From contig JAVJQW010000033.1 in the NCBI GenBank assembly GCA_040218735.1, positions 32,001 through 96,000 on the forward strand: a DNA stretch of 64,000 nt, given 5' to 3'. Origin of the DNA: Deltaproteobacteria bacterium. GTDB taxonomy: Bacteria; Myxococcota; Kuafuiibacteriia; Kuafuiibacteriales; Kuafuiibacteriaceae. Positions 8,725 to 24,273 of the stretch are shown here, in pieces. The notes beneath the pieces are model-generated. The model ran no database searches, was not told the DNA's origin, and saw only the letters and a program-made list of their open reading frames with translations. Both the position numbers and the translations under genes were made by a program. Numbering within the stretch: position 1 is the first letter of the stretch; every line of letters begins with the position of its first letter.

Positions 8725-9927
8725 ATGCGAGGTGCGCTGAGCACGAGCGCGGGGGTCGGCGTGGTGATGGTCGCCGCGGCGCTGTCGCAGTTCTTCGCGA
8801 TGATCCTGCTGGGGCGCACGTCTGAGGCTGCGCTCGGACAGGTGTCGCTCGTGCTGTCGACCGCGACGGTGGTCGGGACGTTTGCGTTGGTCGGGCAGTC
8901 CAACGCCTTCGCGCGGATCCTGGCGCGTGGCGATGCGGCCCAGCTTGCGTGGCCGGTGCAGCTGCGACGCGCGCTGCTCGAGTCCGTCGTGCTGTCGGCG
9001 GCGATGGGGTTGGTCGCGTCGTGGGCGCTGTCGATGTCGTGGATGGCGACCGGCGTGGTGGTCGTCGCGGCGGCGGGGCTGGCGGTGTCGGAGCTCGTGG
9101 CGTCGGGCGTGCTGCGGCCGCTGGGGAAGTTCTTCTCCGCGTCGTTGCTCCTGCGGTTCTGGTCGTTGGCGTTGGGGCTCGCGGTGGTCGGGCTGTTCTT
9201 GGCGGAGGGGCTGACCAAGGACTCCTCGCTGTTGGCGTTCGGCGCGGTGGCGGGCGTCGGGGTGGTGCTCGGCCCTCTGGCTTTGATCCGCGCGCCTTCC
9301 GGGGAGGAGCCGCTGCCGTCGACGTGGCGGCGTACGGGCTTCATGTTCTGGTCGATCCAGCTGTGCCTGATCGCGACGCGGCACCTGGATAGGTTGGTGC
9401 TCGGCGGCGTGCTCGGCGAAGAGACGCTCGCGAAGTACCAGGCGGTGCTGACGCTGTTGATGGCGTTCGATCTCGCGTCGACCGCGCTCGGGTTCGTGTT
9501 GTTGCCGAAGCTCGCGCGCACGGCGCGCGTGAACGCGCCGCGGCTGGGGTCGATGGTGGGCGCGGTCGCGGCCGCGGGCGTGGTGGGTTATCTGCTGCTG
9601 GCGGAGCCGGTGCTGCACTGGGCCTACGACGGCCACTTCGACGACTCGGCTTTTTTGATCTCGTGGTTCGTGGCGGCGGGTGTGCTGAAGGTGATCTACG
9701 CGCTGCCCTCGGCGCTCTTGGGCGGCCGCACGAGTGACCGCGCGCTGGCGTGGTTCGCGGGGCTCAACGTTCCGCTGGTGGTGGTGCATGCCACGTTGAC
9801 GGCGTACCTGGCGCACGTCGACGGCGTGCGGGGGGCGGCGATCGCGCTGGTGATCGCGTGGGGGCTGCGGTTGGTGGTGTCGATCGGGTTGGTGTGGCGG
9901 TTCTGGGAACCGGAGCGGGTGAGTTAG
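8725..9927 (+). CDS. Wzx-like oligosaccharide flippase
   Basis: About 12 TM helices; HLDRLVLGGVLGEETLAKYQ is typical of MOP flippases; coupled to the GT4 gene. Confidence 0.7.
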   Translation: MRGALSTSAGVGVVMVAAALSQFFAMILLGRTSEAALGQVSLVLSTATVVGTFALVGQSNAFARILARGDAAQLAWPVQLRRALLESVVLSAAMGLVASWALSMSWMATGVVVVAAAGLAVSELVASGVLRPLGKFFSASLLLRFWSLALGLAVVGLFLAEGLTKDSSLLAFGAVAGVGVVLGPLALIRAPSGEEPLPSTWRRTGFMFWSIQLCLIATRHLDRLVLGGVLGEETLAKYQAVLTLLMAFDLASTALGFVLLPKLARTARVNAPRLGSMVGAVAAAGVVGYLLLAEPVLHWAYDGHFDDSAFLISWFVAAGVLKVIYALPSALLGGRTSDRALAWFAGLNVPLVVVHATLTAYLAHVDGVRGAAIALVIAWGLRLVVSIGLVWRFWEPERVS

Positions 9928-9937
9928 GGTTCGGTCG

Positions 9938-11263
9938 GTGGCGGACGTCTTTCTGCGTTACGCGCGCGCTGATCTGGAGATCGCGCAGCGGGTACTCGGT
10001 GTTCTGGGATACGCGGCTTCAGGCGGGGGAGTACTTCGACGAGAAGATCGAGGCGGAGCTGGAGGCTTGCGTGTGTGTGGTGGTGCTGTGGAGCGAGCGC
10101 TCGGTGAAGCGGCGGTAGGTTCGGGTCGAAGCGCGGGAGGGGGCGGAGCGGGAGATCCTCGTGCCGGTGTCGGTACACGGGGCGCGCCCGCCGCTGGAGT
10201 TTCCGGGGATCCAGACGCTCGCGATGGACGAGGCCTCGAAGGAGGTGCTCGAGGCGCTGTGGGGCGCGGTGTCGCGGCACGTGGCGCCGTCGTCGGGAGC
10301 CGAGTCGGACGTCGTCGCGAAGCACGGTGGTGAGGTGCTGAACGCGATCGAGGTGCTTCAGGGGCGCTCGAGGGATGACGACATCGAGACGGCGCTTCAG
10401 CTCGCCGGGGGGGAGGCGTTCGGGAGGACGGGCCTCCGCAGCAGCGTTCACGCTTCGTCGAACCCAAGCGGGTCGCGCGGGGGTCGCGGTCTCGGGGCTC
10501 CGCGGGGTGGGCGTTCGATGAGGCGACGGACGGGTTGGGACGTAGCGCGGTCGTGCGGATCGGTGACGTCGGGTTTCGGATGCGGTGGATCGAGGCCGGG
10601 ACGTTCCAGATGGGATCTCCGCCGGAGGATCGGGAGGCCTTCGACCGCGAGCGACCGCAGCACGTCGTGAGGCTCTCCGAGGGGTTCTGGATCGCCGAGG
10701 CGCCCTGCGAGCAGCGGCTCTGGGAGGCGGTGATGGGGTCGAATCCCAGCCAGTTCAAGGGGGGGAGCCGGCCCGTCGAGCGGGTCTCGTGGGACGTCGT
10801 GCAGGCCTTCCTCGCCGCGACGCCCGCGGCGCTGGGGCTCCGCCTGCCGACCGAAGCGGAGTGGGAGTACGCTTGCCGCGCGGGTTCGACCGCGCCGCGC
10901 TACGGTGAGCTCGACGCCATCGCTTGGTACCGAAAGAACGCGGGCGCCGGGACCCACGCGGTGAAGGAGAAACAACCCAATGTGTGGGGCCTCTACGATA
11001 CGTTGGGCAACGTCTACGAGTGGTGTGCCGATGGCGCCGATGGCTTGGTGGGTGATCGGTACGCAGCAGGGGTCCGCGCGAATCCGGTCGGCCCGTCGGG
11101 CGAGCGCCCGGGCCGCGTCTTGCGTGGTGGCTCGTGGGACGCCGACGCGGGGTACGTCCGCGCAGCGTGCCGCTTCGCGGCCCTCCGCGACCTTCGCCGT
11201 GGCGTCGTCGGGTTCCGGCTTGCCCGAGGTCGAGCCCAGCCCAGCCCCGGCGGAGCCGGTTAG
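9938..11263 (+). pseudogene. Disrupted TIR-domain + FGE-sulfatase/C-type-lectin-fold protein
   Basis: VADVFLRYARADLEIAQR | frameshift/deletion | GYSVFWDTRLQAGEYFDEKIEAELEACVCVVVLWSERSVKRR*VRVEARE is a TIR_2 pattern, with TAG at 10116-10118 where Trp is conserved. A second frameshift lies near 10407-10440. An intact FGE domain follows (FQMGSP, RPVERVSW, LRLPTEAEWEYACRAG, PNVWGLYDTLGNVYEWC, RVLRGGSW, GFRLAR). Confidence 0.85.
11111..11230 (+). other. Putative DGR variable region (VR)
   Basis: Codons at the positions that are Asn in the RGGSWNNN-R-N-R-N-N---NRNNN-GFR template consensus all end in C or T (GAC GCC GAC, TAC, TGC, TTC, GCC, CTT, CGT, GGC, GTC). Confidence 0.6.
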
Positions 11264-11279
11264 CCCCGCGGAGCGGGGC
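11247..11279 (+). promoter_or_regulatory. Tandem GGA-triloop hairpins, DGR target-recognition type
   Basis: CCGGC-GGA-GCCGG (11247-11259) and GCCCCGC-GGA-GCGGGGC (11263-11279), immediately 3' of the VR; no U-tract. Confidence 0.65.
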
Positions 11280-11694
11280 AGGGAGTGCGCGGGACGCGCC
11301 CGTGACGTGTCCTGCTGACGACACCGAAGTCGACTCCCCATGCACGTCGTTCGCGTCGCGTTCTCCGGAAACAGCGCGGAGCACTTCGGCGCCCGCATAT
11401 GCGGGATCGGCGGAGCCCGGGAAGCGCGACACGCCTCGCGGGCCCCACGCACATCGCGGTGCATCCTCCAGAGCCCGGAGACAGCGTTGCTTCGCACGTC
11501 CGTCGTGCGCTTTTTTCATTCGAGTCTTGACGGATTCGGAGGCCCTGTCCGGCGATTCTCATCGACGAACGCCGTCGCATCCGAGTTTTTCTGAGTTTGT
11601 CCGGCCTTCGCGCGTTGGCGGGCCGTACGGTGCGTTCTGGTCGATATTGGGTTGTGATCCTCGACGAGCGTCGAATCGGAGCCCGAGTCCTCGA

Positions 11695-11703
11695 TGATAC
11701 GAT
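11695..11703 (+). promoter_or_regulatory. Extended -10 element (TGnTAnnnT), probably giving a leaderless transcript
   Basis: TGATACGAT ends 7 nt before the A of ATG 11710; no Shine-Dalgarno sequence is visible. Confidence 0.5.
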
Positions 11704-11709
11704 CGTTGC

Positions 11710-12702
11710 ATGAGTTTGATCGACCGCAAGTTGTCTTGCATGACCCAGGACGATCTCTTGAAAGGCCTTCGAACTGCGCTGCGCGCCGAGCGCGAGAGCG
11801 GCGTTCAGGCCCTCCAATTCATGGCCGAGATCGAGCGCCGTAAACTCTACATTCCGCGAGGCTTCAGCTCCCTGTTTCGGTTCTGCGTCGAGGGCCTCGG
11901 TCTCACCGAGGACCAGGCGTGTCGGCGTGTCGCCGTCGTTCGCGCGGCGGCCCGAGTCCCCGACGTGTTGCCGCTCCTGGCGTCCGGTGAGTTGCACATG
12001 ACTGGCGTCGCCAAGCTCTCGAAGTTCATGACAGACGACAACGCGCACAGCCTCGTCGAGCAGGCGCGCAATAGATCCAAGGCCGAAGTGGAGCTGATGA
12101 TTGCGACCGAGTTCCCGGGCGCGAAGAGTACGGACGACCGCGTCGAAGCCGCGACGGCGGAGACGTTCAATTTCCGCTTCGACGGGAGCGCCGAGGCAAA
12201 GGCGCTTTTGGATCGAGCGAAGGAGCTCACGCCGCCGGGCACGGACATCGGGGAGATCTTCGAGGCCGCGCTCGCGTTGTACGTGGCGAAACTGGAAAGG
12301 CGCAAGAACGGGAGGACGAGCCGCCCGCGTTCCCTCGCTACGAACGACGCGCCGGCGGGCGCCGCATACGTTCCGGCCGCGACCCGGCGCGCAGTCGTGG
12401 AGCGCGATGGTGCACGGTGTACCTACGTCGGCTCCGACGGCCGGCGCTGCAGCGAGCGCTCGAACCTCGAATTCGATCACGTGGGCGGACGGGCGTTGGG
12501 CGGCAAGAGCATCCCCAGCGAGCTGCGATTGCTCTGTCGTTCGCACAACCTTCACGCAGCCCGCGAGGTGTTCGGCCACGAATTCGTCGACCGCAGAATC
12601 CGCGAGCGCCGATCTACCCTGACTGGTCAGGGTAGATATTCCGGACGCGCCGGCGCAGTAGAGTGCGAGCCGTCGGGGGTGCACACCCAGGGGCGGGACT
12701 GA
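11710..12702 (+). CDS. DUF222-like / HNH endonuclease family protein (repeat-type, possibly mobile)
   Basis: N-terminal AEIERRKLYIPRGFSSLFRFCVEGLGLTEDQACRR; C-terminal RRAVVERDGARCTYVGSDGRRCSERSNLEFDH...GG...LRLLCRSHN. Confidence 0.85.
   Translation: MSLIDRKLSCMTQDDLLKGLRTALRAERESGVQALQFMAEIERRKLYIPRGFSSLFRFCVEGLGLTEDQACRRVAVVRAAARVPDVLPLLASGELHMTGVAKLSKFMTDDNAHSLVEQARNRSKAEVELMIATEFPGAKSTDDRVEAATAETFNFRFDGSAEAKALLDRAKELTPPGTDIGEIFEAALALYVAKLERRKNGRTSRPRSLATNDAPAGAAYVPAATRRAVVERDGARCTYVGSDGRRCSERSNLEFDHVGGRALGGKSIPSELRLLCRSHNLHAAREVFGHEFVDRRIRERRSTLTGQGRYSGRAGAVECEPSGVHTQGRD
12612..12637. repeat. Near-perfect palindrome in the HNH gene tail
   Basis: ATCTACCCTGAC-TG-GTCAGGGTAGAT, 12-bp arms. 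Confidence 0.9.
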
Positions 12703-12761
12703 GGGCGTCGATGCCCGCGTTCGAGCGTCCCCTCCACCTCGGTCATTTAGCTCGGGCGTGC

Positions 12762-12861
12762 CACAACCTTCGCGCAGCCGCGACTTGCCGACCGCAGGAT
12801 CCGAAAAGCACCGCTCTGCCGGGCCCGGTCAGGGGCGGACACTCCGGGCGAGCGGTACGCA
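12762..12861 (+). repeat. Degenerate direct copy of the HNH gene 3' end (12544-12657)
   Basis: Collinear shared blocks CACAACCTTC-CGCAGCC, CGACCGCAG-ATCCG, GGTCAGGG and TCCGG-CG. Confidence 0.75.
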
Positions 12862-13208
12862 AACACACACGTTCGTGGAGAGGTACCGCCGGTCGGCCTC
12901 TCGGATTCGTCCATGCCCGGCGTCGGCCTCGGCCACACCGGCTCATCCGGGGGTCCGGAGCGGCGCCGGTGCGCCGTGGCGACTCGTCATCCGCGCCGTA
13001 GCACCGTCGCTCCGCTCATGACGCGGCGCGGGCCAAACCCCTTCCCGTCACCAGCCGGCGAACCACGGGCGAACGCCGAACTAATCCGTTGCGACGGCGC
13101 TGATCCGTACGATCCGACGCACTCGCCGCGTTTCGTACCTGCGGTTCCCCAGCGTCCGCGGCACCGGCCGCCCGCAGGTCCGGCATGGCGTTGGTCCTCG
13201 AGGCCGCA

Positions 13209-16263: not shown

Positions 16264-16432
16264 GACTGGGCGCCGCGAGGGGGCGGCTAAACCCCCGCAA
16301 CTCATACGCGTTCCGAACGGGCCGTCACCTACGTCGTAGAGGGGGGATGCCTCCCGTAACGGGACGGTAACGTCCGGACCCGCGGCGCTTTCGGCGTGCG
16401 ATGGTACGTGGGGTGCATTGGGCGCGAGCGTG

Positions 16433-18589
16433 ATGAAGCGCTCGAAAGCTCTCCCGCTCTCCTTCGGTTTGATGTTTGCCGTCGCGTGCGGCGGCAGTGA
16501 CGGTGCCAAGGGTCCGGCCGGCGATCCTGGCGCGCAGGGCCCCGCCGGCCCCGCGGGTCCGGTCGGCGGTACCGGCGACCCCGGTACGGACGGCACGAAC
16601 GGCAACGACGGCCGCGACACGATCTTCTCAGGCCCCGGCCTCGCGTTCGAGATGATGAACGCGTCCCTGACCGGCACGACCGCCACGGTCGAGTTTACGG
16701 TCGCCGACGGTGACGGAACCCCGCTCGACGTCGACGGTCGTTACACCGAAGGCGCCGTCTCCGTGAGCTTCGTCCTCGCGGCGCTCGAAGAGGACGCCGA
16801 CGGCGAGGGCGTCGCGTACCACGCGTACACGACGCGCGAGCAGACGAGCCCCATCACGATGGAGACCGCCGAACAGGCGTCGACCGACAGCGGCGGCACC
16901 GTCGAAGTACTCTCCATCGAGGAGGGCCGATACCGCTACACGTTCGGGACGCCCGTCAGCGTGATGGACGAAGGGTGGACCCACACGATCGCGGCCTACG
17001 CGACGCGCACGTTCGAGGAGGTTCGCTACGTCGCGAACCACGAGCTGAACTTCCGCCCGGACGGCGCCGCCGTGACGGTCACGCGCGACATCGCCAACGA
17101 CGACGCGTGTGCCTCCTGCCACGACGACCTGTCGGCGCACGGCGGCTCGCGTCGCGACGTGTTGCTCTGCCAGACCTGCCACACGCCGGACACGGTCGAC
17201 CCGGACACCGGCAACACCGTCGACTGGAAGGTCATGATCCACAAGATCCACCGCGGCGCTTCGCTCCCGAGCGTCGAGGCCGGCGGAACCTACGAGATCA
17301 TCGGCTTCAGGCAGTCGTCGCACGACTACTCGGACGTGCACTTCCCGCAGCTCATCGAGCGCTGCGAGGTCTGCCACACCGGTGAAGATGCGGATCGCGC
17401 GCTGACCGCGCCGGCCCGCGACGCCTGCCTCTCCTGCCACGACACCACGTCGTTCGTGGACCCGCCGCCCGCCGGCATGGTCCTGCACGGCGGCGGCGCG
17501 CAGCCGGACGGTGCACCGTGCAACGTCTGCCACGCGCCGACGGGGAGCATCGCGGGCGTCACCGAGAGCCACCTCACCGCGCTCCTCGATCCGGCGAACC
17601 CGAGCGTCGGCCTCGAGCTGATGTCCGTGTCGAACAGTGGCCCCGGGATGACGCCTACCGTACGCTTCCGCGTGACGGTCGACGACATGCCGCGCGACAT
17701 CATCGCGAACCCGCTCGACACGCTGCGCCTGACCTTCACCGGGCCGAACACCGACTTCGCGACGACGTGGCAGGCGACCGTCGCGGGCGGCGGCCTCGCC
17801 GCGGTCGACGCCGCGGACGGTGTCTTCGACTTCACCGTCGGCGCCGCCCAGGCGGTCCCGGTCGGCGCGAGCGGCAGCTACACCGTCGGCATGGAAGGTT
17901 ACCTGCGCCCCGGCTCGGATCGCTTCGCGGCGTTCAGCCCCGTGATGCCGTTCGCGGTGACGGACGCGGCCGCGGTGCCGCGCCGCACCGTCGTCAGCAG
18001 CGACAAGTGCAACGCGTGTCACTACGACCTCGCGCTGCACGGTGGGCAACGCAAGAACCCGGGCGTGTACTGCGCCACGTGCCACAACGCGAACCTGACG
18101 AACGCAGGCCGCTCGCCGAAGCCCGAGGGTGAAGACATCTACGTCAACACCACCGACTTCAAGCGCATGATCCACAAGATCCACGCGGGCGAGAACCTGA
18201 CGCAGCCCTACGCGCTCGGTGGGTTCGGCGGACCGATCGACTTCGGTCACGTTCGCTACCCGGCGACGCTGTCGAACTGCGACGTCTGCCACGTCGACGA
18301 CTCGCACCAGCTGCCGGTCGCGGCGGGGGTGTTGCCGTCCATCGAAGAGGTGCGGACCTGCCTGGAGGCCCCGGGCGCCGACACCAACGACACTTGTGAC
18401 TCCGCGATGTGGGTCGTGACTTCGACCATCGTGCTGCAGCCGGAGACTTCGGCGTGCACGAGCTGTCACGACTCGCCCGCCGCGCTCGCGCACGCCAACA
18501 TCATGACCACCCCGGATGGTCGTGAGAGCTGCGCGACGTGCCACGGGTCGGGCGCTGGCTACGACGTCGACGTCGTGCACGGGAACTGA
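16433..18589 (+). CDS. OmcA/MtrC-family decaheme c-type cytochrome lipoprotein
   Basis: Lipobox FAVAC; 10 CxxCH motifs in two blocks of five; two (K/R)MIHKIH segments; beta-rich domains between the heme blocks. Confidence 0.9.
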   Translation: MKRSKALPLSFGLMFAVACGGSDGAKGPAGDPGAQGPAGPAGPVGGTGDPGTDGTNGNDGRDTIFSGPGLAFEMMNASLTGTTATVEFTVADGDGTPLDVDGRYTEGAVSVSFVLAALEEDADGEGVAYHAYTTREQTSPITMETAEQASTDSGGTVEVLSIEEGRYRYTFGTPVSVMDEGWTHTIAAYATRTFEEVRYVANHELNFRPDGAAVTVTRDIANDDACASCHDDLSAHGGSRRDVLLCQTCHTPDTVDPDTGNTVDWKVMIHKIHRGASLPSVEAGGTYEIIGFRQSSHDYSDVHFPQLIERCEVCHTGEDADRALTAPARDACLSCHDTTSFVDPPPAGMVLHGGGAQPDGAPCNVCHAPTGSIAGVTESHLTALLDPANPSVGLELMSVSNSGPGMTPTVRFRVTVDDMPRDIIANPLDTLRLTFTGPNTDFATTWQATVAGGGLAAVDAADGVFDFTVGAAQAVPVGASGSYTVGMEGYLRPGSDRFAAFSPVMPFAVTDAAAVPRRTVVSSDKCNACHYDLALHGGQRKNPGVYCATCHNANLTNAGRSPKPEGEDIYVNTTDFKRMIHKIHAGENLTQPYALGGFGGPIDFGHVRYPATLSNCDVCHVDDSHQLPVAAGVLPSIEEVRTCLEAPGADTNDTCDSAMWVVTSTIVLQPETSACTSCHDSPAALAHANIMTTPDGRESCATCHGSGAGYDVDVVHGN
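16502..16618 (+). repeat. Collagen-like (Gly-X-Y)13 stalk in the decaheme protein
   Basis: GAK GPA GDP GAQ GPA GPA GPV GGT GDP GTD GTN GND GRD. Confidence 0.85.
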
Positions 18590-19926
18590 TGCAGAGGTCG
18601 GCGCTCCTCCTCGTCCTGCTCCCGCTCGCCTGCTCCGAAGCGCGCGAGCGGGAGGCTCGGGGGGACTGTGTGAGTTACGTCGAGGACGTCGCGCCGCGTC
18701 TGCGTCAGTACTGCTCGACCTGCCACGCCGAGGATCGCGCCGAAGGCGACTACGTCACCGCCACCTACGGCGCGGTCCTCCAAGGTGGCTCGGATGACGT
18801 CCCCAACGCCATCGCCGGGGACGAGGAATCACGGATCCTCCAAGTGCTCGCCACCGCCGAACGCCACCACCTCGAGGCGACCGCGATCGCTGGGCTGCTG
18901 CGCGAGTGGGTCGTCGAGTGCGAGCTCGCCCACCGCGACTCGTTCGTCCACGAGCCCGGCATCCTCGATCCGGCCAGCGACGCGTTCCATGGCGCGTCCC
19001 TCGCGGGTACCGGCGACGTCTACGCACCGTGCCGCGAATGCCACGGCGATCGACTGCGCGGCGGCGGTACGGAGGTCTCCTGCCGGACGTGTCACCGCCC
19101 GGACGCGACGGACTGCAGCGTCTGCCACCGGCCCGAGAAGGTCGACGCTCCGCACGCGCGCCACGCTGCGTTCGACTGCGAGAGCTGCCACGCGGTCCCC
19201 GAGCGCTACGACGCGCCCGGGCACCTCGACGGCACTGCGGACGTTCGCATCGTCGCCTTTGGGCTGGACGGCGCGTTCGATACGAGCGCGAAGACCTGCG
19301 AAGCCTACTGCCACGGCGAGCAGCGCCCCGCGTGGGGGTCGGGGGAGGACGCCCCGTGCGGCACGTGCCACGGCAACCCGCCGACGTCGCACGCGTTCGA
19401 CGACTGCGCGCGCTGCCACGACACCGCGACGCACGTGAACGGGGCGGTCGAGGTGTTCGAGGACTGCGACGCCTGCCACGTCCCGGCCGAGACCGGCAAA
19501 CACCGCGAGCACCTGTCGCCGCGGCTGCGCCTCACCTCGTCGATGCAGTGCAGCGACTGCCACCTCGTACCCGAGACGGTGACGGCGCCGGGGCACCTCG
19601 ACACGCCGGCTCCGGCGGAGGTGTTCGTCGAGGCGATCCTCGGGGAGAGCCTCGCCGCCGCGCGCGGCGCGAACCCGACCTACGACGGAGCGACGTGCTC
19701 CAACGTCTACTGCCACGGCGACGCGACGCTGTCCTGGGCGCCGTCCACGGAGCACGTGGTGTTCTGCGGGACGTGCCACGGGCTCCCGCCCGAGACGTCG
19801 CCCCACGAATCGTCGATGACGATCCGAACCTGCGTCGACTGCCACGCCAGCAGCGTCGATGGGTTCGGCAACATCATCTTCGTCGACGGAGAAAGTGAGC
19901 ACCTCGACGGTGAAGTCGATCGCTGA
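18589..19926 (+). CDS. CxxxxCH/CxxCH-type multiheme cytochrome lipoprotein (13 motifs)
   Basis: Lipobox LPLAC; 11 CxxCH plus CEAYCH and CSNVYCH; start overlaps the upstream stop (TGATG). Confidence 0.88.
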   Translation: MQRSALLLVLLPLACSEAREREARGDCVSYVEDVAPRLRQYCSTCHAEDRAEGDYVTATYGAVLQGGSDDVPNAIAGDEESRILQVLATAERHHLEATAIAGLLREWVVECELAHRDSFVHEPGILDPASDAFHGASLAGTGDVYAPCRECHGDRLRGGGTEVSCRTCHRPDATDCSVCHRPEKVDAPHARHAAFDCESCHAVPERYDAPGHLDGTADVRIVAFGLDGAFDTSAKTCEAYCHGEQRPAWGSGEDAPCGTCHGNPPTSHAFDDCARCHDTATHVNGAVEVFEDCDACHVPAETGKHREHLSPRLRLTSSMQCSDCHLVPETVTAPGHLDTPAPAEVFVEAILGESLAAARGANPTYDGATCSNVYCHGDATLSWAPSTEHVVFCGTCHGLPPETSPHESSMTIRTCVDCHASSVDGFGNIIFVDGESEHLDGEVDR

Positions 19927-20548
19927 TCTCCTCGTCCTCGCGACGATCGTCTTTGCGCTGATCGCCGGAGCGATCATGGTCTGGTACCTGATACGCCAAC
20001 CCGCGCTCACCGCTGCAACCAAACTTGCGTTGCTCGCGGGCATCTTCGTCTTCCCGCTGCTGTCCGCGATGTCCGGCAACGTGTCCGGCTACGAGACCAC
20101 CCAGAAGCGTCACTTCTGCGGTGGGTGCCACGTCATGATCCCGTACACCGATGACGCGGAGAATCCGAACAGCACTTCACTCGCGTCGCTGCACGCGAGG
20201 AACGAGCTGTTCGGTGATCGCAACTGCTACCGCTGTCACGAGGACTACGCGATGTTCGGCGCCGTCACGACGAAGGCGACCGGCCTCGTGCACGCGTATC
20301 ACTACGTGAAGTCGTACTGGTCGATGCCCGCGGAGGACGCGCTCGGCAAGATGCACCTGTACAACCCGTACCCCAACTCCAACTGCATGCACTGTCACTC
20401 GACTCGGCTCCCGGGGTTCGAGGAGCTCGCGGATCACAAGGGCGCGCTCGAGTCGATTCGCGAAGGCAAGGAGAGTTGCGTGAGCTCGGGGTGCCACGGC
20501 CCGGTGCACCCGTTCTCCAAGAAGAAAGAGGAGGAGGCGCAGCCATGA
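19910..20548 (+). CDS. NapC/NirT-family membrane-bound tetraheme cytochrome (quinol dehydrogenase-like)
   Basis: Two N-terminal TMs, then FCGGCHVM, CYRCH, CMHCH and CVSSGCH. Confidence 0.85.
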   Translation: MKSIADLLVLATIVFALIAGAIMVWYLIRQPALTAATKLALLAGIFVFPLLSAMSGNVSGYETTQKRHFCGGCHVMIPYTDDAENPNSTSLASLHARNELFGDRNCYRCHEDYAMFGAVTTKATGLVHAYHYVKSYWSMPAEDALGKMHLYNPYPNSNCMHCHSTRLPGFEELADHKGALESIREGKESCVSSGCHGPVHPFSKKKEEEAQP

Positions 20549-20775
20549 CGGCGCTGTCCTCGCCGTCCGCGCATCGCCGCCTCCGCTACGCGTGCTGGAT
20601 GACCATCGCGGCGCTCGCGATGTTCGTCTGGTCCGTGATCGACCCCGGCGTCATCCCGGTGATGATCGCGATGAGCGTCGGGCAGGTGCTCGGGACGCTC
20701 GCGACGATGCTGTTCCTCTGGGTCGTGCTCTCGGACCTGCGGCGCGCACGGGTGTTGGATCGGGAACGCCGATGA
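20545..20775 (+). CDS. Small 2-TM membrane protein
   Basis: 76 aa with two hydrophobic helices; ATGA overlaps at both ends. Confidence 0.75.
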   Translation: MTALSSPSAHRRLRYACWMTIAALAMFVWSVIDPGVIPVMIAMSVGQVLGTLATMLFLWVVLSDLRRARVLDRERR

Positions 20776-21890
20776 TCCCGTTGCTCCTCCTCGTCGTCGC
20801 GCAGGCTGCGCCGAGTTATCGGTTGCGCGCCGACGTGCTCGCGGCGAGCCAGGCGCCCTCCGGCGTCATCGCGCTGTCGGGGGAGGCGAAGCAGGCTTCG
20901 TGGGTCTCCGCCGAGGCGCTGCTGTGGGCGGGCGACGAGGAGATCGACGCGCTGATCGCGTCCGTGCGGCTGGTGCACCCCGACGGACTGGGCGAGCTGC
21001 GCGCCGGTCGAATGCTGCTCGCGACGGGGGCGCTTCGGCCCGTGCACTTCGACGGCGCGGCGGGCCTCGTGCGTGCTCCGTGGGGTACGACCGTCGAGGC
21101 GTTCGCGGGGTCGCCGGTGGTGCCGCGTTTTGCGTACCGCGGCGGTGACTGGTTGGTGGGCGGGCGTGTCGTGCAGCGCGTGAGCGGCCTCGGCCACGTC
21201 GGCGTCGCGATCCTGCGACGCACCGACGACGGCGCGCTCGCGGACCAGGAGGTCGGCCTCGACGCGGTGTTCCTACCGGCGGAGAGCGTCGACGTCGCCG
21301 CGCGGGCCGCGTACGACCTCGTGACCTACGGCGTGAGCGAAGCCTCGATCGGCGGCGGCGTGACGCTGTCCCCGGTGCGGGTGAGCGTGCTCGCGCAGCA
21401 CCGTTCGCCGTCCCGGATCCTGCTCGCGACGTCCGTGTTCTCCGTGCTCGGCGACGTGCCTTCCAACGCATTCCTCGTCACGGCCGACTGGCGCGCGGCG
21501 CCGCGCCTCGACGTGTCGCTGACCGCCGGCGCGCGGCACGTGGACGGGTGGGGCGACGAGGTTCGCCTCGCCTCCACGTTACGTCTCGACGACCGCGGGC
21601 ACGGGGCCGTCGGCGTCGTCCTCACGCGCTACGGCGCAGGGGGCGCGAGGTGGATGGGCGCGCGGGTGTTCGTGCGCCAACCGATCGTCGATGCGTTGAT
21701 CGCATCGCTCGAGGCGGAGCTCGCGCGCACGGAAGACGGTGACGTCTGGCCGTGGGCGCTCGGTGCGATCACCTGGCGGTTCCTGCCGCGGTGGGACGCG
21801 GCGCTCGCGGTGGAGAGCAGCGCGTCGCCGACGTACCGCTACGCAGTGCAGGCGATCGGACGGGTGGGGTACCGGTGGAGCGGACCGTGA
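20772..21890 (+). CDS. Predicted outer-membrane beta-barrel (porin) protein
   Basis: Signal peptide, amphipathic beta-strand alternation throughout, C-terminal strand QAIGRVGYRW; lies inside the cytochrome operon. Confidence 0.7.
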   Translation: MIPLLLLVVAQAAPSYRLRADVLAASQAPSGVIALSGEAKQASWVSAEALLWAGDEEIDALIASVRLVHPDGLGELRAGRMLLATGALRPVHFDGAAGLVRAPWGTTVEAFAGSPVVPRFAYRGGDWLVGGRVVQRVSGLGHVGVAILRRTDDGALADQEVGLDAVFLPAESVDVAARAAYDLVTYGVSEASIGGGVTLSPVRVSVLAQHRSPSRILLATSVFSVLGDVPSNAFLVTADWRAAPRLDVSLTAGARHVDGWGDEVRLASTLRLDDRGHGAVGVVLTRYGAGGARWMGARVFVRQPIVDALIASLEAELARTEDGDVWPWALGAITWRFLPRWDAALAVESSASPTYRYAVQAIGRVGYRWSGP

Positions 21891-22915
21891 AGCGTTTGTT
21901 GGTGTTGTTGGCGCCGGTTGCGTTCGCGGCGTGTGCGACGTTGCTCGGGATCCGTCCGCCGGAGGGCGGGCCCTTCGAGCACCGCGCGCACGTCTTGAAC
22001 GGCATCGCCTGCCTCGACTGCCATACGTCGATCCTCGCCGCGACGTCCTCCTCCGCGGTCGCGCTGCCGACCCGCGATCTGTGCTGGAAGTGCCACGAAG
22101 ATCCGCACGACAAAAAGCCCTGCCTGACCTGCCACGGCGATCGCGACACCGCGCGCCGCACGGAGATGGCGCGTTACTACCTGAGCTTCGATCACTCGAC
22201 GCACACGCCGCGGCTCGACGGGCAGTGCGTCCGTTGCCACGTCGACGTGCGCGAGGAGCGCGCGAGCCTGATGCCGAAGATGGGCGTCTGCCTCTCCTGC
22301 CACGCACACGAAGACGACTTCGAGGTGCGCGACTGCGACCGCTGCCACGTCGCGCTGGAGGCGGAGACGGTGCGCCCCTCGAGCCACGCGGTGCACGCCG
22401 ACGACTTCGTTCGGTCGCACGGTCCGCAGGCGTCTTCGTCCGCCGACCTCTGCCGGACCTGCCACAGCGAACGCGAGTGCGCCTCCTGCCACGGCATCTC
22501 CGTGCCCGCGTTGTCCTGGCGCTTCGAGCTCGACAACCCGCGGCGCGCGGGGCTGCACCGCGCGAACTTCGTCGCTCGCCACGCGACGGAGGCGCGCGTC
22601 GACGCGAGCGCCTGTCTGTCGTGCCACACCCGCGAGACGTGCCAGAGCTGCCACGCGCGCGAGGACGTCGCGACCGGCTCCACGAAAGTGAGCCCCCACC
22701 CGCCGGGGTGGGTCGGCGTGAATTCGAACCGCCACGGGATCGAGGCGCGGCGGGATCCGCTGGCGTGTGCGTCGTGCCACGGCGGCGCGGGCGAGATGTT
22801 GTGCGTCGACTGTCACGCGGTGGGCCGCTTCGGCGGATCGCCCCATCCGCCGGGTTACCGCAGCGCGAAGAACCGCGCGCGCGACGTGCCGTGTCGCTGG
22901 TGCCACGTCCCGTGA
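21887..22915 (+). CDS. Cytochrome c3-like multiheme lipoprotein (13 CxxCH)
   Basis: Lipobox FAAC; FEHRAH and FDHSTH c3-type segments; 13 CxxCH; GTGA overlap. Confidence 0.88.
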   Translation: MKRLLVLLAPVAFAACATLLGIRPPEGGPFEHRAHVLNGIACLDCHTSILAATSSSAVALPTRDLCWKCHEDPHDKKPCLTCHGDRDTARRTEMARYYLSFDHSTHTPRLDGQCVRCHVDVREERASLMPKMGVCLSCHAHEDDFEVRDCDRCHVALEAETVRPSSHAVHADDFVRSHGPQASSSADLCRTCHSERECASCHGISVPALSWRFELDNPRRAGLHRANFVARHATEARVDASACLSCHTRETCQSCHAREDVATGSTKVSPHPPGWVGVNSNRHGIEARRDPLACASCHGGAGEMLCVDCHAVGRFGGSPHPPGYRSAKNRARDVPCRWCHVP

Positions 22916-24273
22916 AGCGTTGGGTCGCCGCGTTGTTGTTCCTCGTCGCGTGTGATGCGCCGACGCGCCCGTCCGTCTACGTCCCGGAGTCGTGGAAGGA
23001 GTACCGCAAGGGCATCGGCCACCTCGTGCACCTCGAGGCGGAGGACATCGCGTGCGCCGACTGCCACCCCGCGGAGGGGAGCGGCTTCGCTTCTCCGGGT
23101 GATCTGATCTGCGAGCGGTGCCACGAGGACGTCCTGGATCGGACGCACGTGTCCGCCGAGGCGCCGAAGAGCAAGTGCCTCGAGTGCCACGGCTTCAAGG
23201 AGGTCACGGAGGTCGCGCCCGACGCCTGCGCGCGGTGCCACGAGGACGCCGAGGTCCACACGGACAAGTGCACTTCGTGCCACCAGCCCCACGGCACCAA
23301 GCCGCGCGCCCGCTGCGAGACGTGCCATGAAGAGGTCAGCTCGGCGCTGCACGTCACCATCCGCGATCCGATCGAACGCTGCGAGGCCTGCCACGAACCG
23401 CACGGTGACGTCCGTTCGTGCGCGAGCTGCCACGAGGACAAGAAGGCGGCGCCCGGTCACGAGGGTTGCTCGGACTGCCACGTCGCGCACGACGAGCCGA
23501 AGACCTGCGCGAGTTGCCACACGAAGCAGTCGGACCTCGGGCACGAGAAGTGCTCGGACTGCCACGACCCGCACCGCGAGTCGAAGCCCCTCGACGCGTG
23601 CGCGACGTGCCACACCGACGTGTTAGTGAACCACGCCGACAAGAACGCGTGCGCCGACTGTCACGCTGGGCACGCGAAACCGACGCTCACCTGCACGAAG
23701 TGCCACGAGAACGCCCCGTCCGACCGCGCGCTGCATGCGAGCAAGACGGATTGCAAGAGCTGCCACCAGCCCCACGGGATGCAACCGCTCGATTGTTCGC
23801 GCTGCCACGCGACGGTGCTCCCGATCGCGCCGCACGAGGACTGCGCGTCCTGCCACGACACCGCGCACGCTCCGAAGAAGGACGACGCGGCGTGCGCGAC
23901 GTGCCACGAGGTCGGCGGCCACGAAAAGTGCGGCGACTGCCACGAGCCTCACACCGGGCGCACTGCGAAGAAGGACTGCGCGTCGTGCCACGACAAGGTC
24001 ACGGCGCACGGCAAGAAGGCTTGCGCGACGTGCCACGATCAACACGCGAAGAACGAGCCGCCGGCGTGTGTCTCTTGCCACGAGGTGCTGCCGGCGCTGC
24101 ACGGCGACCCCGGGCACCGCGACTGCAGTGGGTGCCACGAGGCGCACGGACCGCGCCCGGTGTCGGACCGGCGAACGTGTGGCCGTTGCCACGAAGGTCT
24201 GGAGACACACGAGCCCGCGGCGTCGTCGTGCCGCGGCTGTCACCCGTTCACGACGGCCGCCGTACCACGATGA
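22912..24273 (+). CDS. 25-heme c-type cytochrome lipoprotein
   Basis: Lipobox LVAC; 25 CxxCH counted in 453 aa; GTGA overlap with the upstream stop. Confidence 0.9.
   Translation: MKRWVAALLFLVACDAPTRPSVYVPESWKEYRKGIGHLVHLEAEDIACADCHPAEGSGFASPGDLICERCHEDVLDRTHVSAEAPKSKCLECHGFKEVTEVAPDACARCHEDAEVHTDKCTSCHQPHGTKPRARCETCHEEVSSALHVTIRDPIERCEACHEPHGDVRSCASCHEDKKAAPGHEGCSDCHVAHDEPKTCASCHTKQSDLGHEKCSDCHDPHRESKPLDACATCHTDVLVNHADKNACADCHAGHAKPTLTCTKCHENAPSDRALHASKTDCKSCHQPHGMQPLDCSRCHATVLPIAPHEDCASCHDTAHAPKKDDAACATCHEVGGHEKCGDCHEPHTGRTAKKDCASCHDKVTAHGKKACATCHDQHAKNEPPACVSCHEVLPALHGDPGHRDCSGCHEAHGPRPVSDRRTCGRCHEGLETHEPAASSCRGCHPFTTAAVPR

What the first reader, a model, noticed from the sequence alone, without database searches (positions are those of the whole stretch)
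11111..11279. Orphan (remote) DGR target: VR-like 3' end of an FGE/CLec domain plus two GGA-triloop hairpins, with no RT or TR nearby
Seen: the FGE domain ends RVLRGGSWDADAGYVRAACRFAALRDLRRGVVGFRLAR. Every codon at the positions that are Asn in typical DGR templates ends in C or T. Two of them, CTT and CGT, are T-ending codons unusual for this genome and fit AAT template codons. Directly downstream are CCGGC-GGA-GCCGG and GCCCCGC-GGA-GCGGGGC. Established: DGRs mutate only template adenines (AAY becomes NNY) in C-terminal CLec/FGE-type domains, and they need a DNA hairpin 3' of the VR (GRNA loop in Bordetella phage BPP-1; GRA triloops in Legionella-type elements). Inference: this gene was diversified in trans by a DGR located elsewhere. 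I found no AAC-rich copy of this segment and no reverse transcriptase in the 64 kb. Caveat: NNC codons are common at about 70% GC, so the hairpins carry much of the weight.
Basis: partly seen in the sequence, partly recalled or inferred. Interest (0 to 1): 0.78.

Follow-up and report, generated by a model that had tools for sequence, protein, structure and literature searches.

The report
Donor-less DGR target site, decayed gene
The tail of a partly broken TIR-lectin gene has the marks of a site that a diversity-generating retroelement rewrites, but no donor lies within 64 kb and the rest of the genome could not be searched.

Summary
ORF 10535-11263 (+) is an FGE-sulfatase/C-type-lectin-fold domain with the quoted C-terminus. 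It is followed by three GGA-triloop hairpins, not two.

Most relatives without a template repeat (TR) show the same Y-ending codons.

Comparison with 78 related loci is much stronger. Confirmed DGR variable repeats (VRs) in Accumulibacter, Rhodocyclaceae and Polyangiaceae loci carry the same layout:
- the same 23-codon spacing;
- an AGGTC boundary where their TRs read AGCTC;
- the same CCGGC-GGA-GCCGG and CCGC-GGA-GCGG hairpin cores.

Sense-strand GGA-triloop hairpins are 53-fold enriched just after such ends. The boundary-plus-hairpin signature tracks direct DGR evidence (Fisher p 7e-5).

The window holds no TR and no reverse transcriptase (RT).

The gene is a decayed TIR-FGE fusion, with a frameshifting deletion, an in-frame TAG and a frameshifting linker insert. 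An intact ortholog exists at 80% identity.

Verdict: a genuine DGR-type recipient site (about 0.8). It is either served remotely or, somewhat more likely, a relic. This is a new member of a known kind, of moderate interest.

The parts
9938..10118 (+). Remnant of the N-terminal TIR domain. It starts at GTG 9938. A frameshifting deletion of roughly 20 nt lies near 9995-10003, relative to the intact ortholog P0002. An in-frame TAG at 10116-10118 sits where P0002 has Trp.
   Evidence: Three-frame translations; Pfam TIR_2 at E 1e-5 on the fragment, 26.3 bits against a cut-off of 28; P0002 sequence; tblastn of P0002 against the window.
10119..10534 (+). The rest of the TIR domain and the linker. The linker holds an extra segment of about 160 nt (roughly 10340-10500) that is absent from P0002 and shifts the frame again.
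10535..11263 (+). Intact ORF for the FGE-sulfatase / C-type-lectin-fold domain (242 aa). The protein collection holds it as a 236-aa protein, P0001.
   Evidence: Pfam PF03781 at E 1e-35; P0001 is 100% identical.
11123..11226 (+). VR-like segment: RGGSW, 23 codons, then VGFRLAR. The variable-type codons lie at 11138-11209.
   Evidence: Gap-free register with seven confirmed TRs; scaffold nucleotide identity of 72-83% to DGR VRs of L002, L007 and L025, against 55-64% to five other relatives.
11227..11231 (+). AGGTC boundary motif at the end of VR-TR homology. The window has the VR-type G here, where templates have C.
   Evidence: Alignment A1: VR copies read AGGTC and TR copies read AGCTC in L007, L025 and L037; L035 reads AGGTT against AGCTT.
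11247..11259 (+). Hairpin 1, CCGGC-GGA-GCCGG. It lies inside the last codons of the ORF and has the same core as the hairpin after the confirmed VRs of L007 and L025.
11263..11279 (+). Hairpin 2, GCCCCGC-GGA-GCGGGGC, overlapping the last base of the stop codon. Its core CCGC-GGA-GCGG is shared with the three hairpins after the L002 VR.
11287..11299 (+). Hairpin 3, GCGCG-GGA-CGCGC.

Best explanation
The 3' end of this gene is a recipient (variable-repeat) site of a diversity-generating retroelement. It matches the type whose confirmed examples in the related loci sit beside MoxR-like ATPase genes and carry one long and one short FGE-domain target.

Proposed mechanism, inferred by analogy with BPP-1 and the confirmed loci: a reverse transcriptase copies a template repeat with errors at adenines. 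The cDNA replaces the segment between RGGSW and the AGGTC boundary. The boundary motif and the GGA-triloop hairpin array downstream mark this copy as recipient rather than donor. The result is rewriting of about 9-14 ligand-contact codons as NNY or NGG.

Shown here: the cis elements, their register, and their specific likeness to confirmed VRs.

Not shown: a matching template or RT in this genome. The donor is not within the 64 kb. The N-terminal TIR effector of the gene is broken, so the site is either still served in trans as a lectin-only target or, somewhat more likely, a recent relic.
For: (1) Scanning the 78 related loci for repeat pairs whose mismatches fall on adenines of one copy found TR/VR pairs in 5 loci. 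A more tolerant scan raised loci with direct DGR evidence to 10.
(2) The window aligns without gaps to 7 confirmed TRs from RGGSW to xGFR.
(3) Confirmed VRs read AGGTC where their TRs read AGCTC. The window reads AGGTC at the same place.
(4) The VRs of L007 and L025 are followed 7 nt later by GCCGGC-GGA-GCCGGC, and by further GGA hairpins. L002 has three GCCGC-GGA-GCGGC hairpins. The window has both cores.
(5) In the 78 loci, sense-strand GGA-triloop hairpins number 15 in the 9.8 kb lying within 130 nt after VR-like ends, against 68 in the other 2.35 Mb. That is 53-fold enrichment. Other triloops are enriched 1.7-fold.
(6) The signature (AGG[TA]C plus a G[GA]A triloop hairpin) occurs in 5 of 10 loci with direct DGR evidence and in 1 of 68 without (Fisher p 6.8e-5).
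(7) The window's VR scaffold and boundary are 83%, 77% and 72% identical in nucleotides to L002, L007 and L025, against 55-64% to five other relatives. The upstream domain is 56-60% identical to all eight.
(8) All 9 residues that differ between the window and ortholog P0002 in the 23-codon core fall on codons that carry adenine in at least 6 of 7 TRs. Differences are denser there: 9 of 23 against 35 of 222, p 0.01.
(9) Donor-less target loci have precedent. In L002, two unlike FGE domains share one VR scaffold and differ at 16 sites, split 6/9/1 by codon position, with no RT or TR within 10 kb.
(10) Remote targets more than 100 kb from the RT, and targets served in trans, are reported in passages of PMC5758913 and of bioRxiv 10.1101/2023.09.22.558884.
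Against: - No TR or RT lies in the 64 kb.
- A degenerate template pattern found nothing in 185,579 representative genomes. The source genome was not shown to be among them. The pattern also assumed no adenine at codon positions 1-2 of codons shared with P0002.
- No paralog on the 11,524,684-bp contig appeared in the best 120 hits of the 'near' or 'longer' protein searches. The region-limited search also found none, but it missed the known ortholog and is insensitive.
- The comparison with P0002 is weak. The 23-residue block just upstream has 8 differences. Third-base retention is 9 of 9 against 30 of 35 (p 0.30), and changes needing 2 or more nucleotides are 3 of 9 against 5 of 35 (p 0.20).
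- Six positions that usually carry adenine in TRs are identical in the two orthologs.
- The conserved Pro of the scaffold is Arg here.
- The gene's TIR half is a pseudogene.
- The folded region is not unusually stable (z -1.9 as RNA, -0.9 as DNA).
Confidence: 0.78

Rival explanations
1. Relic target. The site was written by a DGR in an ancestor, but the donor has been lost from this genome and the gene is decaying. The VR, boundary and hairpins are fossils with no present function. This is a sub-case of the best explanation, and the figure given is its share of the whole.
For: Three disruptions of the TIR half against an intact ortholog. GC3 of the ORF is lower than that of its neighbours and it has more A/T-ending codons. 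No donor lies in 64 kb. No scaffold-sharing paralog from the same contig appears in the listed protein hits.
Against: The FGE ORF, boundary motif and all three hairpin stems are still perfect. By my reading (eye count, no computed figure), the TIR remnant is more similar to P0002 than the FGE half is, so any decay is recent. Short lectin-only targets are normal in this DGR type. The genome itself was not searched.
Confidence: 0.45
2. Ordinary FGE-sulfatase-domain gene. Its C-terminus looks VR-like only because the fold is conserved, and the hairpins are a transcription terminator or a generic GC-rich palindrome.
For: RGGSW...GFR is conserved across the whole family. Y-ending codons at the 'Asn' positions are common in relatives with no template in their locus. 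Stem-loops with stems of 5 or more are no more frequent in the window than in Markov simulations, 168 against 158. Fold z-scores are unremarkable.
Against: The hairpins lack a T tract, and a T-tract terminator-like site lies 230 nt further on, at 11493-11519. GGA triloops are 53-fold enriched after VR-like ends, while other triloops are enriched 1.7-fold. Hairpin cores and the AGGTC boundary are shared with confirmed VRs and are absent from their TRs. Likeness at synonymous sites is confined to the VR scaffold.
Confidence: 0.15

Closest known systems
DGR loci with a MoxR-like AAA ATPase, a long FGE-domain target, RT, TR and a short FGE-only target. Seen here in Accumulibacter loci L007 and L025. 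The layout resembles the one described for RT 'clade 5A' in bioRxiv 10.1101/2023.09.22.558884 (passages read).
   Same: Same FGE-domain subfamily (45% identity, among the best 7 of 617 relatives). Same VR register. Same AGGTC boundary. Same GCCGGC-GGA-GCCGGC hairpin core, with arrays of several GGA hairpins. The first hairpin lies inside the ORF tail.
   Different: The window has no RT, TR or MoxR gene nearby. The N-terminal partner is a TIR domain, and it is broken. The scaffold has Arg where these have Pro. The spacer from AGGTC to the first hairpin is 15 nt rather than 7. Whether the unseen RT, if any, belongs to clade 5A was not tested.
Polyangiaceae MAG locus L002 (contig JADJRH010000001.1), a pair of long and short FGE-domain targets.
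   Same: It is the closest relative in the genome collection (48% identity). It has the highest VR-scaffold nucleotide identity (83%), including the rare CTT Leu codon and CGAGGTC. It carries three GGA-triloop hairpins with the CCGC-GGA-GCGG core. It has no RT or TR within 10 kb.
   Different: L002 has two sibling VRs whose differences show diversification directly (16 sites, 6/9/1 by codon position). The window has a single VR, so no such internal proof is possible.
Remote (non-adjacent) DGR targets, as in Treponema denticola and the Lineage 4 DGRs surveyed in PMC5758913 (passages read).
   Same: A C-terminal VR in an FGE/CLec domain, far from any RT.
   Different: [quoted passage not shown] No TR is known here.
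BPP-1 Mtd target site (IMH plus a GRNA-tetraloop cruciform), PMC3240598 (passages read).
   Same: A GC-rich hairpin 4-34 bp after the VR marks the recipient. The donor lacks it.
   Different: Here the loops are 3 nt (GGA), the stems are 5-7 bp and there are three hairpins. GRA trinucleotide loops inside the target gene are described for Nanoarchaeota DGRs in PMC4372165 (passage read).

Membership tests
DGR variable repeat (target site) | A template repeat in the same genome that differs from the VR almost only where the template has adenine | not testable with these tools
   Within the window it is not met: the best adenine-tolerant match is 73 of 105, which is background. One search did not return the source genome, and the pattern found nothing but may not have covered it.
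DGR variable repeat (target site) | A DGR-class reverse transcriptase in the genome | not testable with these tools
   None in the window. The genome was not searched.
DGR variable repeat (target site) | The VR lies at the C-terminus of a C-type-lectin / FGE-fold domain, in the register of known TRs | tested here: met
   Pfam PF03781 at E 1e-35; gap-free register with 7 confirmed TRs.
DGR variable repeat (target site) | An IMH-type 3' boundary that differs from the donor's IMH* | tested here: met
   The window has AGGTC at 11227-11231. VR copies read AGGTC and TR copies read AGCTC in L007, L025 and L037; L035 reads AGGTT against AGCTT. This rests on likeness to other elements' boundaries, because the window's own IMH* is unknown.
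DGR variable repeat (target site) | A GC-rich inverted repeat shortly downstream of the VR | tested here: met
   Three GGA-triloop hairpins lie 15-55 nt after the boundary. This class is 53-fold enriched after VR-like ends.
DGR variable repeat (target site) | Variation among alleles or paralogs confined to template-adenine positions | tested here: inconclusive
   Only one ortholog, and only as protein. All 9 differing sites fall on usual adenine codons, but the density and codon tests are weak.
TIR-domain protein | An intact TIR domain | tested here: not met
   The fragment scores 26.3 bits against the 28-bit cut-off. The reading frame is broken by a deletion and a TAG. Ortholog P0002 carries TIR_2.
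Formylglycine-generating enzyme / EgtB / PvdO enzymes | A score above the curated equivalog cut-off | tested here: not met
   The best NCBIfam scores are 55-65 bits against cut-offs of 350-500. The match is therefore at fold level only.

The most novel reading that the evidence does not exclude
A DGR elsewhere in this 11.5-Mb genome still rewrites this site. After loss of its TIR effector the gene would live on as a hypervariable lectin-only protein. The tandem array of GGA-triloop hairpins together with the AGGTC boundary would be a clade-specific recipient signal. That signal is portable enough to find DGR targets, and fossils of lost DGRs, without knowing the template.
Probability: 0.25. 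Interest if true: 0.55.

Novelty: new member of a known kind. Interest (0 to 1): 0.42.

Why it matters
DGR targets are normally found by starting from the RT and TR. Here a recipient site was recognised from its own cis elements, with no donor in view. If the boundary-plus-GGA-hairpin signature holds up, it offers a template-free way to list remote and orphaned targets. It could also date DGR loss in large genomes of multicellular bacteria, where hypervariable lectin domains fused to TIR and other effectors are thought to act as antigen sensors (passages of PMC7159879 and of bioRxiv 10.1101/2023.09.22.558884). The instance in this window is a decaying gene and is ordinary in kind.

Tried and rejected
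- Y-ending codon test. It is significant only if amino-acid composition is ignored (19 of 24, p 0.008; 13 of 18 among codons with four or more synonyms, p 0.08). It is also shared by relatives without templates. I dropped it as evidence.
- Repeat search in the window found no copy of the segment.
- Degenerate template scan of genome contigs gave 0 hits. It is uninformative because the protein scan did not return the source genome. The pattern also fixed positions 1-2 of codons shared with P0002.
- Region-limited protein search for proteins sharing the scaffold gave 2 hits among 166 candidates. It missed P0002, which scores E 8e-8 locally, so the negative carries little weight.
- The 'longer' protein search listed no hit from the 11,524,684-bp contig among its best 120. 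That list is dominated by proteins with several FGE domains.
- One tblastn RT hit at 21060-21353 (E 0.04) had no Pfam support and was rejected.
- Third-base-retention and multi-nucleotide-change tests against P0002 were not significant.
- Rfam found nothing in 9000-13000.
- PADLOC found only TIR-type matches on the fragment and on P0002.
- The Legionella DGR paper PMC3657778 is not held.

Full report
**What is at the coordinates**

The window is 69% GC. Its gene content includes Ser/Thr kinase, DUF4388, multihaem cytochromes and Mrp antiporter genes.

ORF 10535-11263 (+) encodes a 242-aa FGE-sulfatase domain (Pfam PF03781, E 1e-35). The stop codon is TAG at 11261-11263.

The two hairpins are real. 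CCGGC-GGA-GCCGG lies at 11247-11259, inside the last codons. GCCCCGC-GGA-GCGGGGC lies at 11263-11279. A third, GCGCG-GGA-CGCGC, lies at 11287-11299. Across the window, GGA/TCC triloop stems of 5 or more number 6, against 5.7 in Markov simulations. What is odd is that three sit within 53 nt.

**The gene is a decayed TIR-FGE fusion**

- The protein collection holds the FGE ORF as a 236-aa protein on an 11,524,684-bp contig (P0001).
- It also holds an intact 392-aa ortholog with TIR_2 and FGE domains at 80% identity (P0002).
- Against P0002 the window has three disruptions:
  - a GTG start at 9938 followed by a frameshifting deletion of about 20 nt near 9995-10003;
  - TAG at 10116-10118 where P0002 has Trp;
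  - an extra segment of about 160 nt in the linker that shifts the frame again.
- The first is a deletion of about 20 nt and the second a base substitution. By inference, neither is the kind of change a homopolymer sequencing error makes.
- The ORF also has lower GC3 and more A/T-ending codons than its neighbours.

- In the 24 codons at 11138-11209, 19 end in C or T, against a baseline of 0.53 (p 0.008).
- Asp, Tyr, Cys and Phe can only end in Y. Among codons with four or more synonyms the count is 13 of 18 (p 0.08).
- Against seven empirically confirmed templates, the window has Y at 11 of 11 usual AAY positions and G at both usual AGG positions.
- Most relatives with no template in their locus also score 9-11 of 11.
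- The pattern fits a VR but does not discriminate within this subfamily.

**No donor in the window**

- No RVT family was found among 45 high-GC3 ORFs.
- No repeat of the segment was found.
- The best adenine-tolerant match on either strand is 73 of 105, the same as background in control loci.
- tblastn with four DGR RTs gave only one hit, at E 0.04, which Pfam does not support.

**Comparison with related loci**

The search for related loci returned 78 loci encoding relatives at 36-48% identity.

A scan for repeat pairs whose mismatches fall on adenines of one copy found TR/VR pairs in L007, L011, L014, L025 and L078. An adenine-tolerant scan added L035, L037, L075 and L076. It also found a pair of sibling VRs in L002.

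L007 reads MoxR-like AAA ATPase, 967-aa FGE target, RT, TR, 285-aa FGE-only target. This matches a layout described for one clade of DGRs in multicellular bacteria (passages of bioRxiv 10.1101/2023.09.22.558884).

Four results bear on the window.

1. Boundary motif. Where homology between VR and TR ends, VR copies read AGGTC and TR copies read AGCTC in L007, L025 and L037. L035 reads AGGTT against AGCTT. The window reads AGGTC at 11227-11231.

2. Hairpin cores.
   - The VRs of L007 and L025 are followed 7 nt later by GCCGGC-GGA-GCCGGC and then by more GGA hairpins.
   - The L002 VR is followed by three GCCGC-GGA-GCGGC hairpins.
   - The window's hairpin 1 has the first core and hairpin 2 has the second.
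   - TR copies have neither the boundary G nor hairpins.

3. Enrichment and association.
   - Over all 78 loci and both strands, sense-strand GGA-triloop hairpins number 15 in the 9.8 kb within 130 nt after VR-like ends, and 68 in the remaining 2.35 Mb.
   - That is 53-fold enrichment. GAA is enriched 14-fold and other triloops 1.7-fold.
   - The combined signature occurs in 5 of 10 loci with direct DGR evidence and in 1 of 68 without (p 6.8e-5).
   - The regular expression demands exactly 23 codons between RGGxW and xG[FL]R, so ends with other spacing were not counted.

4. Nucleotide likeness confined to the VR.
   - The window's VR scaffold plus boundary is 83%, 77% and 72% identical to L002, L007 and L025.
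   - It is 55-64% identical to L010, L001, L003, L028 and L046.
   - The upstream domain is 56-60% identical to all eight.
   - At the variable codons amino-acid identity is 7-13%. Third-base identity is 67% for the three DGR loci (47-73% over all eight), against 38-50% upstream.

**The ortholog comparison is only weak support**

- In the 23-codon core the window and P0002 differ at 9 sites, against 35 of 222 elsewhere (p 0.01).
- The block just upstream has 8 differences.
- All 9 sites fall on codons that carry adenine in at least 6 of 7 templates (p 0.0007-0.03 per template).
- The G(GGG)/W pair sits where templates have AGG.
- These are also the ligand-contact loops of the fold.
- Third-base retention (9 of 9 against 30 of 35) and multi-nucleotide changes (3 of 9 against 5 of 35) are not significant.
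- Six usual adenine positions are identical in the two proteins.

**The genome beyond the window**

- The degenerate template pattern found nothing in the genome collection.
- The later protein scan did not return the window's own locus or P0002's contig. I therefore cannot say that the source genome was covered.
- The pattern also fixed positions 1-2 of codons shared with P0002.
- Protein searches listed no paralog from the 11,524,684-bp contig.
- The region-limited search is insensitive, since it missed P0002.
- Whether a matching TR and RT exist in this genome stays open.

**Hairpins as terminators**

The three hairpins have no T tract. A stem followed by CTTTTTT lies at 11493-11519. Fold energies of 11225-11330 are not exceptional. 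Rfam has no match.

**Reading**

The site is a DGR-type recipient, at about 0.8. Donor-less loci of the same kind exist:
- L002 shows diversification between its two VRs (16 differences, 6/9/1 by codon position; upstream ungapped identity 31%) with no RT or TR within 10 kb.
- L010 has the signature and no template in 20 kb.

Remote targets and action in trans are known (passages of PMC5758913 and of the bioRxiv preprint). GRA trinucleotide loops inside target genes are described for Nanoarchaeota DGRs (passage of PMC4372165). The standard hairpin model is a GRNA tetraloop with a 7-10 bp stem, 4-34 bp after the VR (passages of PMC3240598 and PMC6602519).

Because the TIR half is broken, I put a relic somewhat ahead of a live trans target. 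My searches for DGR together with Myxococc* listed 16 papers. I read passages of only one of them (PMC7159879), so I make no claim about what is in print for this phylum.

**Novelty**

This is a new member of a known kind. The possibly useful by-product is the template-free signature.

Noticed in passing
window 11710-12702 (+): An ORF of 330 aa in a stretch of lower GC (58-66% over 11300-12500). It has weak HNH endonuclease matches: Pfam HNH_5 at E 0.011, and NCBIfam IscB HNH region at E 5e-5, far below the cut-off. The nearest Atlas clusters are HNH-bearing hypothetical proteins, commonest in Myxococcota and Bdellovibrionota. Together with the decayed TIR-FGE gene it may form a small acquired island inside a polysaccharide-type gene cluster.
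   Followed up: partly
L002 9789-9893 and 10628-10732 (Polyangiaceae MAG, contig JADJRH010000001.1): Two adjacent FGE-domain genes (941 and 322 aa) share one VR scaffold. They differ at 16 sites, almost all at codon positions 1-2, and each is followed by GGA-triloop hairpins. No RT or TR lies within 10 kb. This is a clear donor-less DGR target pair in a myxobacterial lineage.
   Followed up: partly
window 11493-11519 (+): A terminator-like stem followed by CTTTTTT, 230 nt downstream of the FGE stop codon. The 430-nt gap between the FGE ORF and the next ORF is otherwise unexplained.
   Followed up: no
window 16340-24100 (+): A run of multihaem c-type cytochrome genes (MtrC/MtrF-like domains, cytochrome c7, NapC/NirT) with many CxxCH-encoding direct repeats.
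   Followed up: no
window 11232-11246: The spacer between AGGTC and hairpin 1 contains a tandem CCCAG CCCAG. This may be a 5-nt duplication that lengthened the spacer to 15 nt, against 7-11 nt in L007, L025 and L002.
   Followed up: no
L010 10607-10790 (Thiothrix MAG): A VR-like FGE end with AGGTC, followed by GCGGC-GAA-GCCGC and CCGCC-GGA-GGCGG hairpins. No template or RT lies in the 20 kb held. This is another candidate remote target.
   Followed up: no
P0003, P0136, P0236 (proteins on a 6,048,587-bp contig): These are the closest relatives after P0002 (49-52% identity). P0003 has two tandem FGE domains, each ending in a VR-like tail with ...GFRLSRGHGAPS. They may be multi-VR targets.
   Followed up: no
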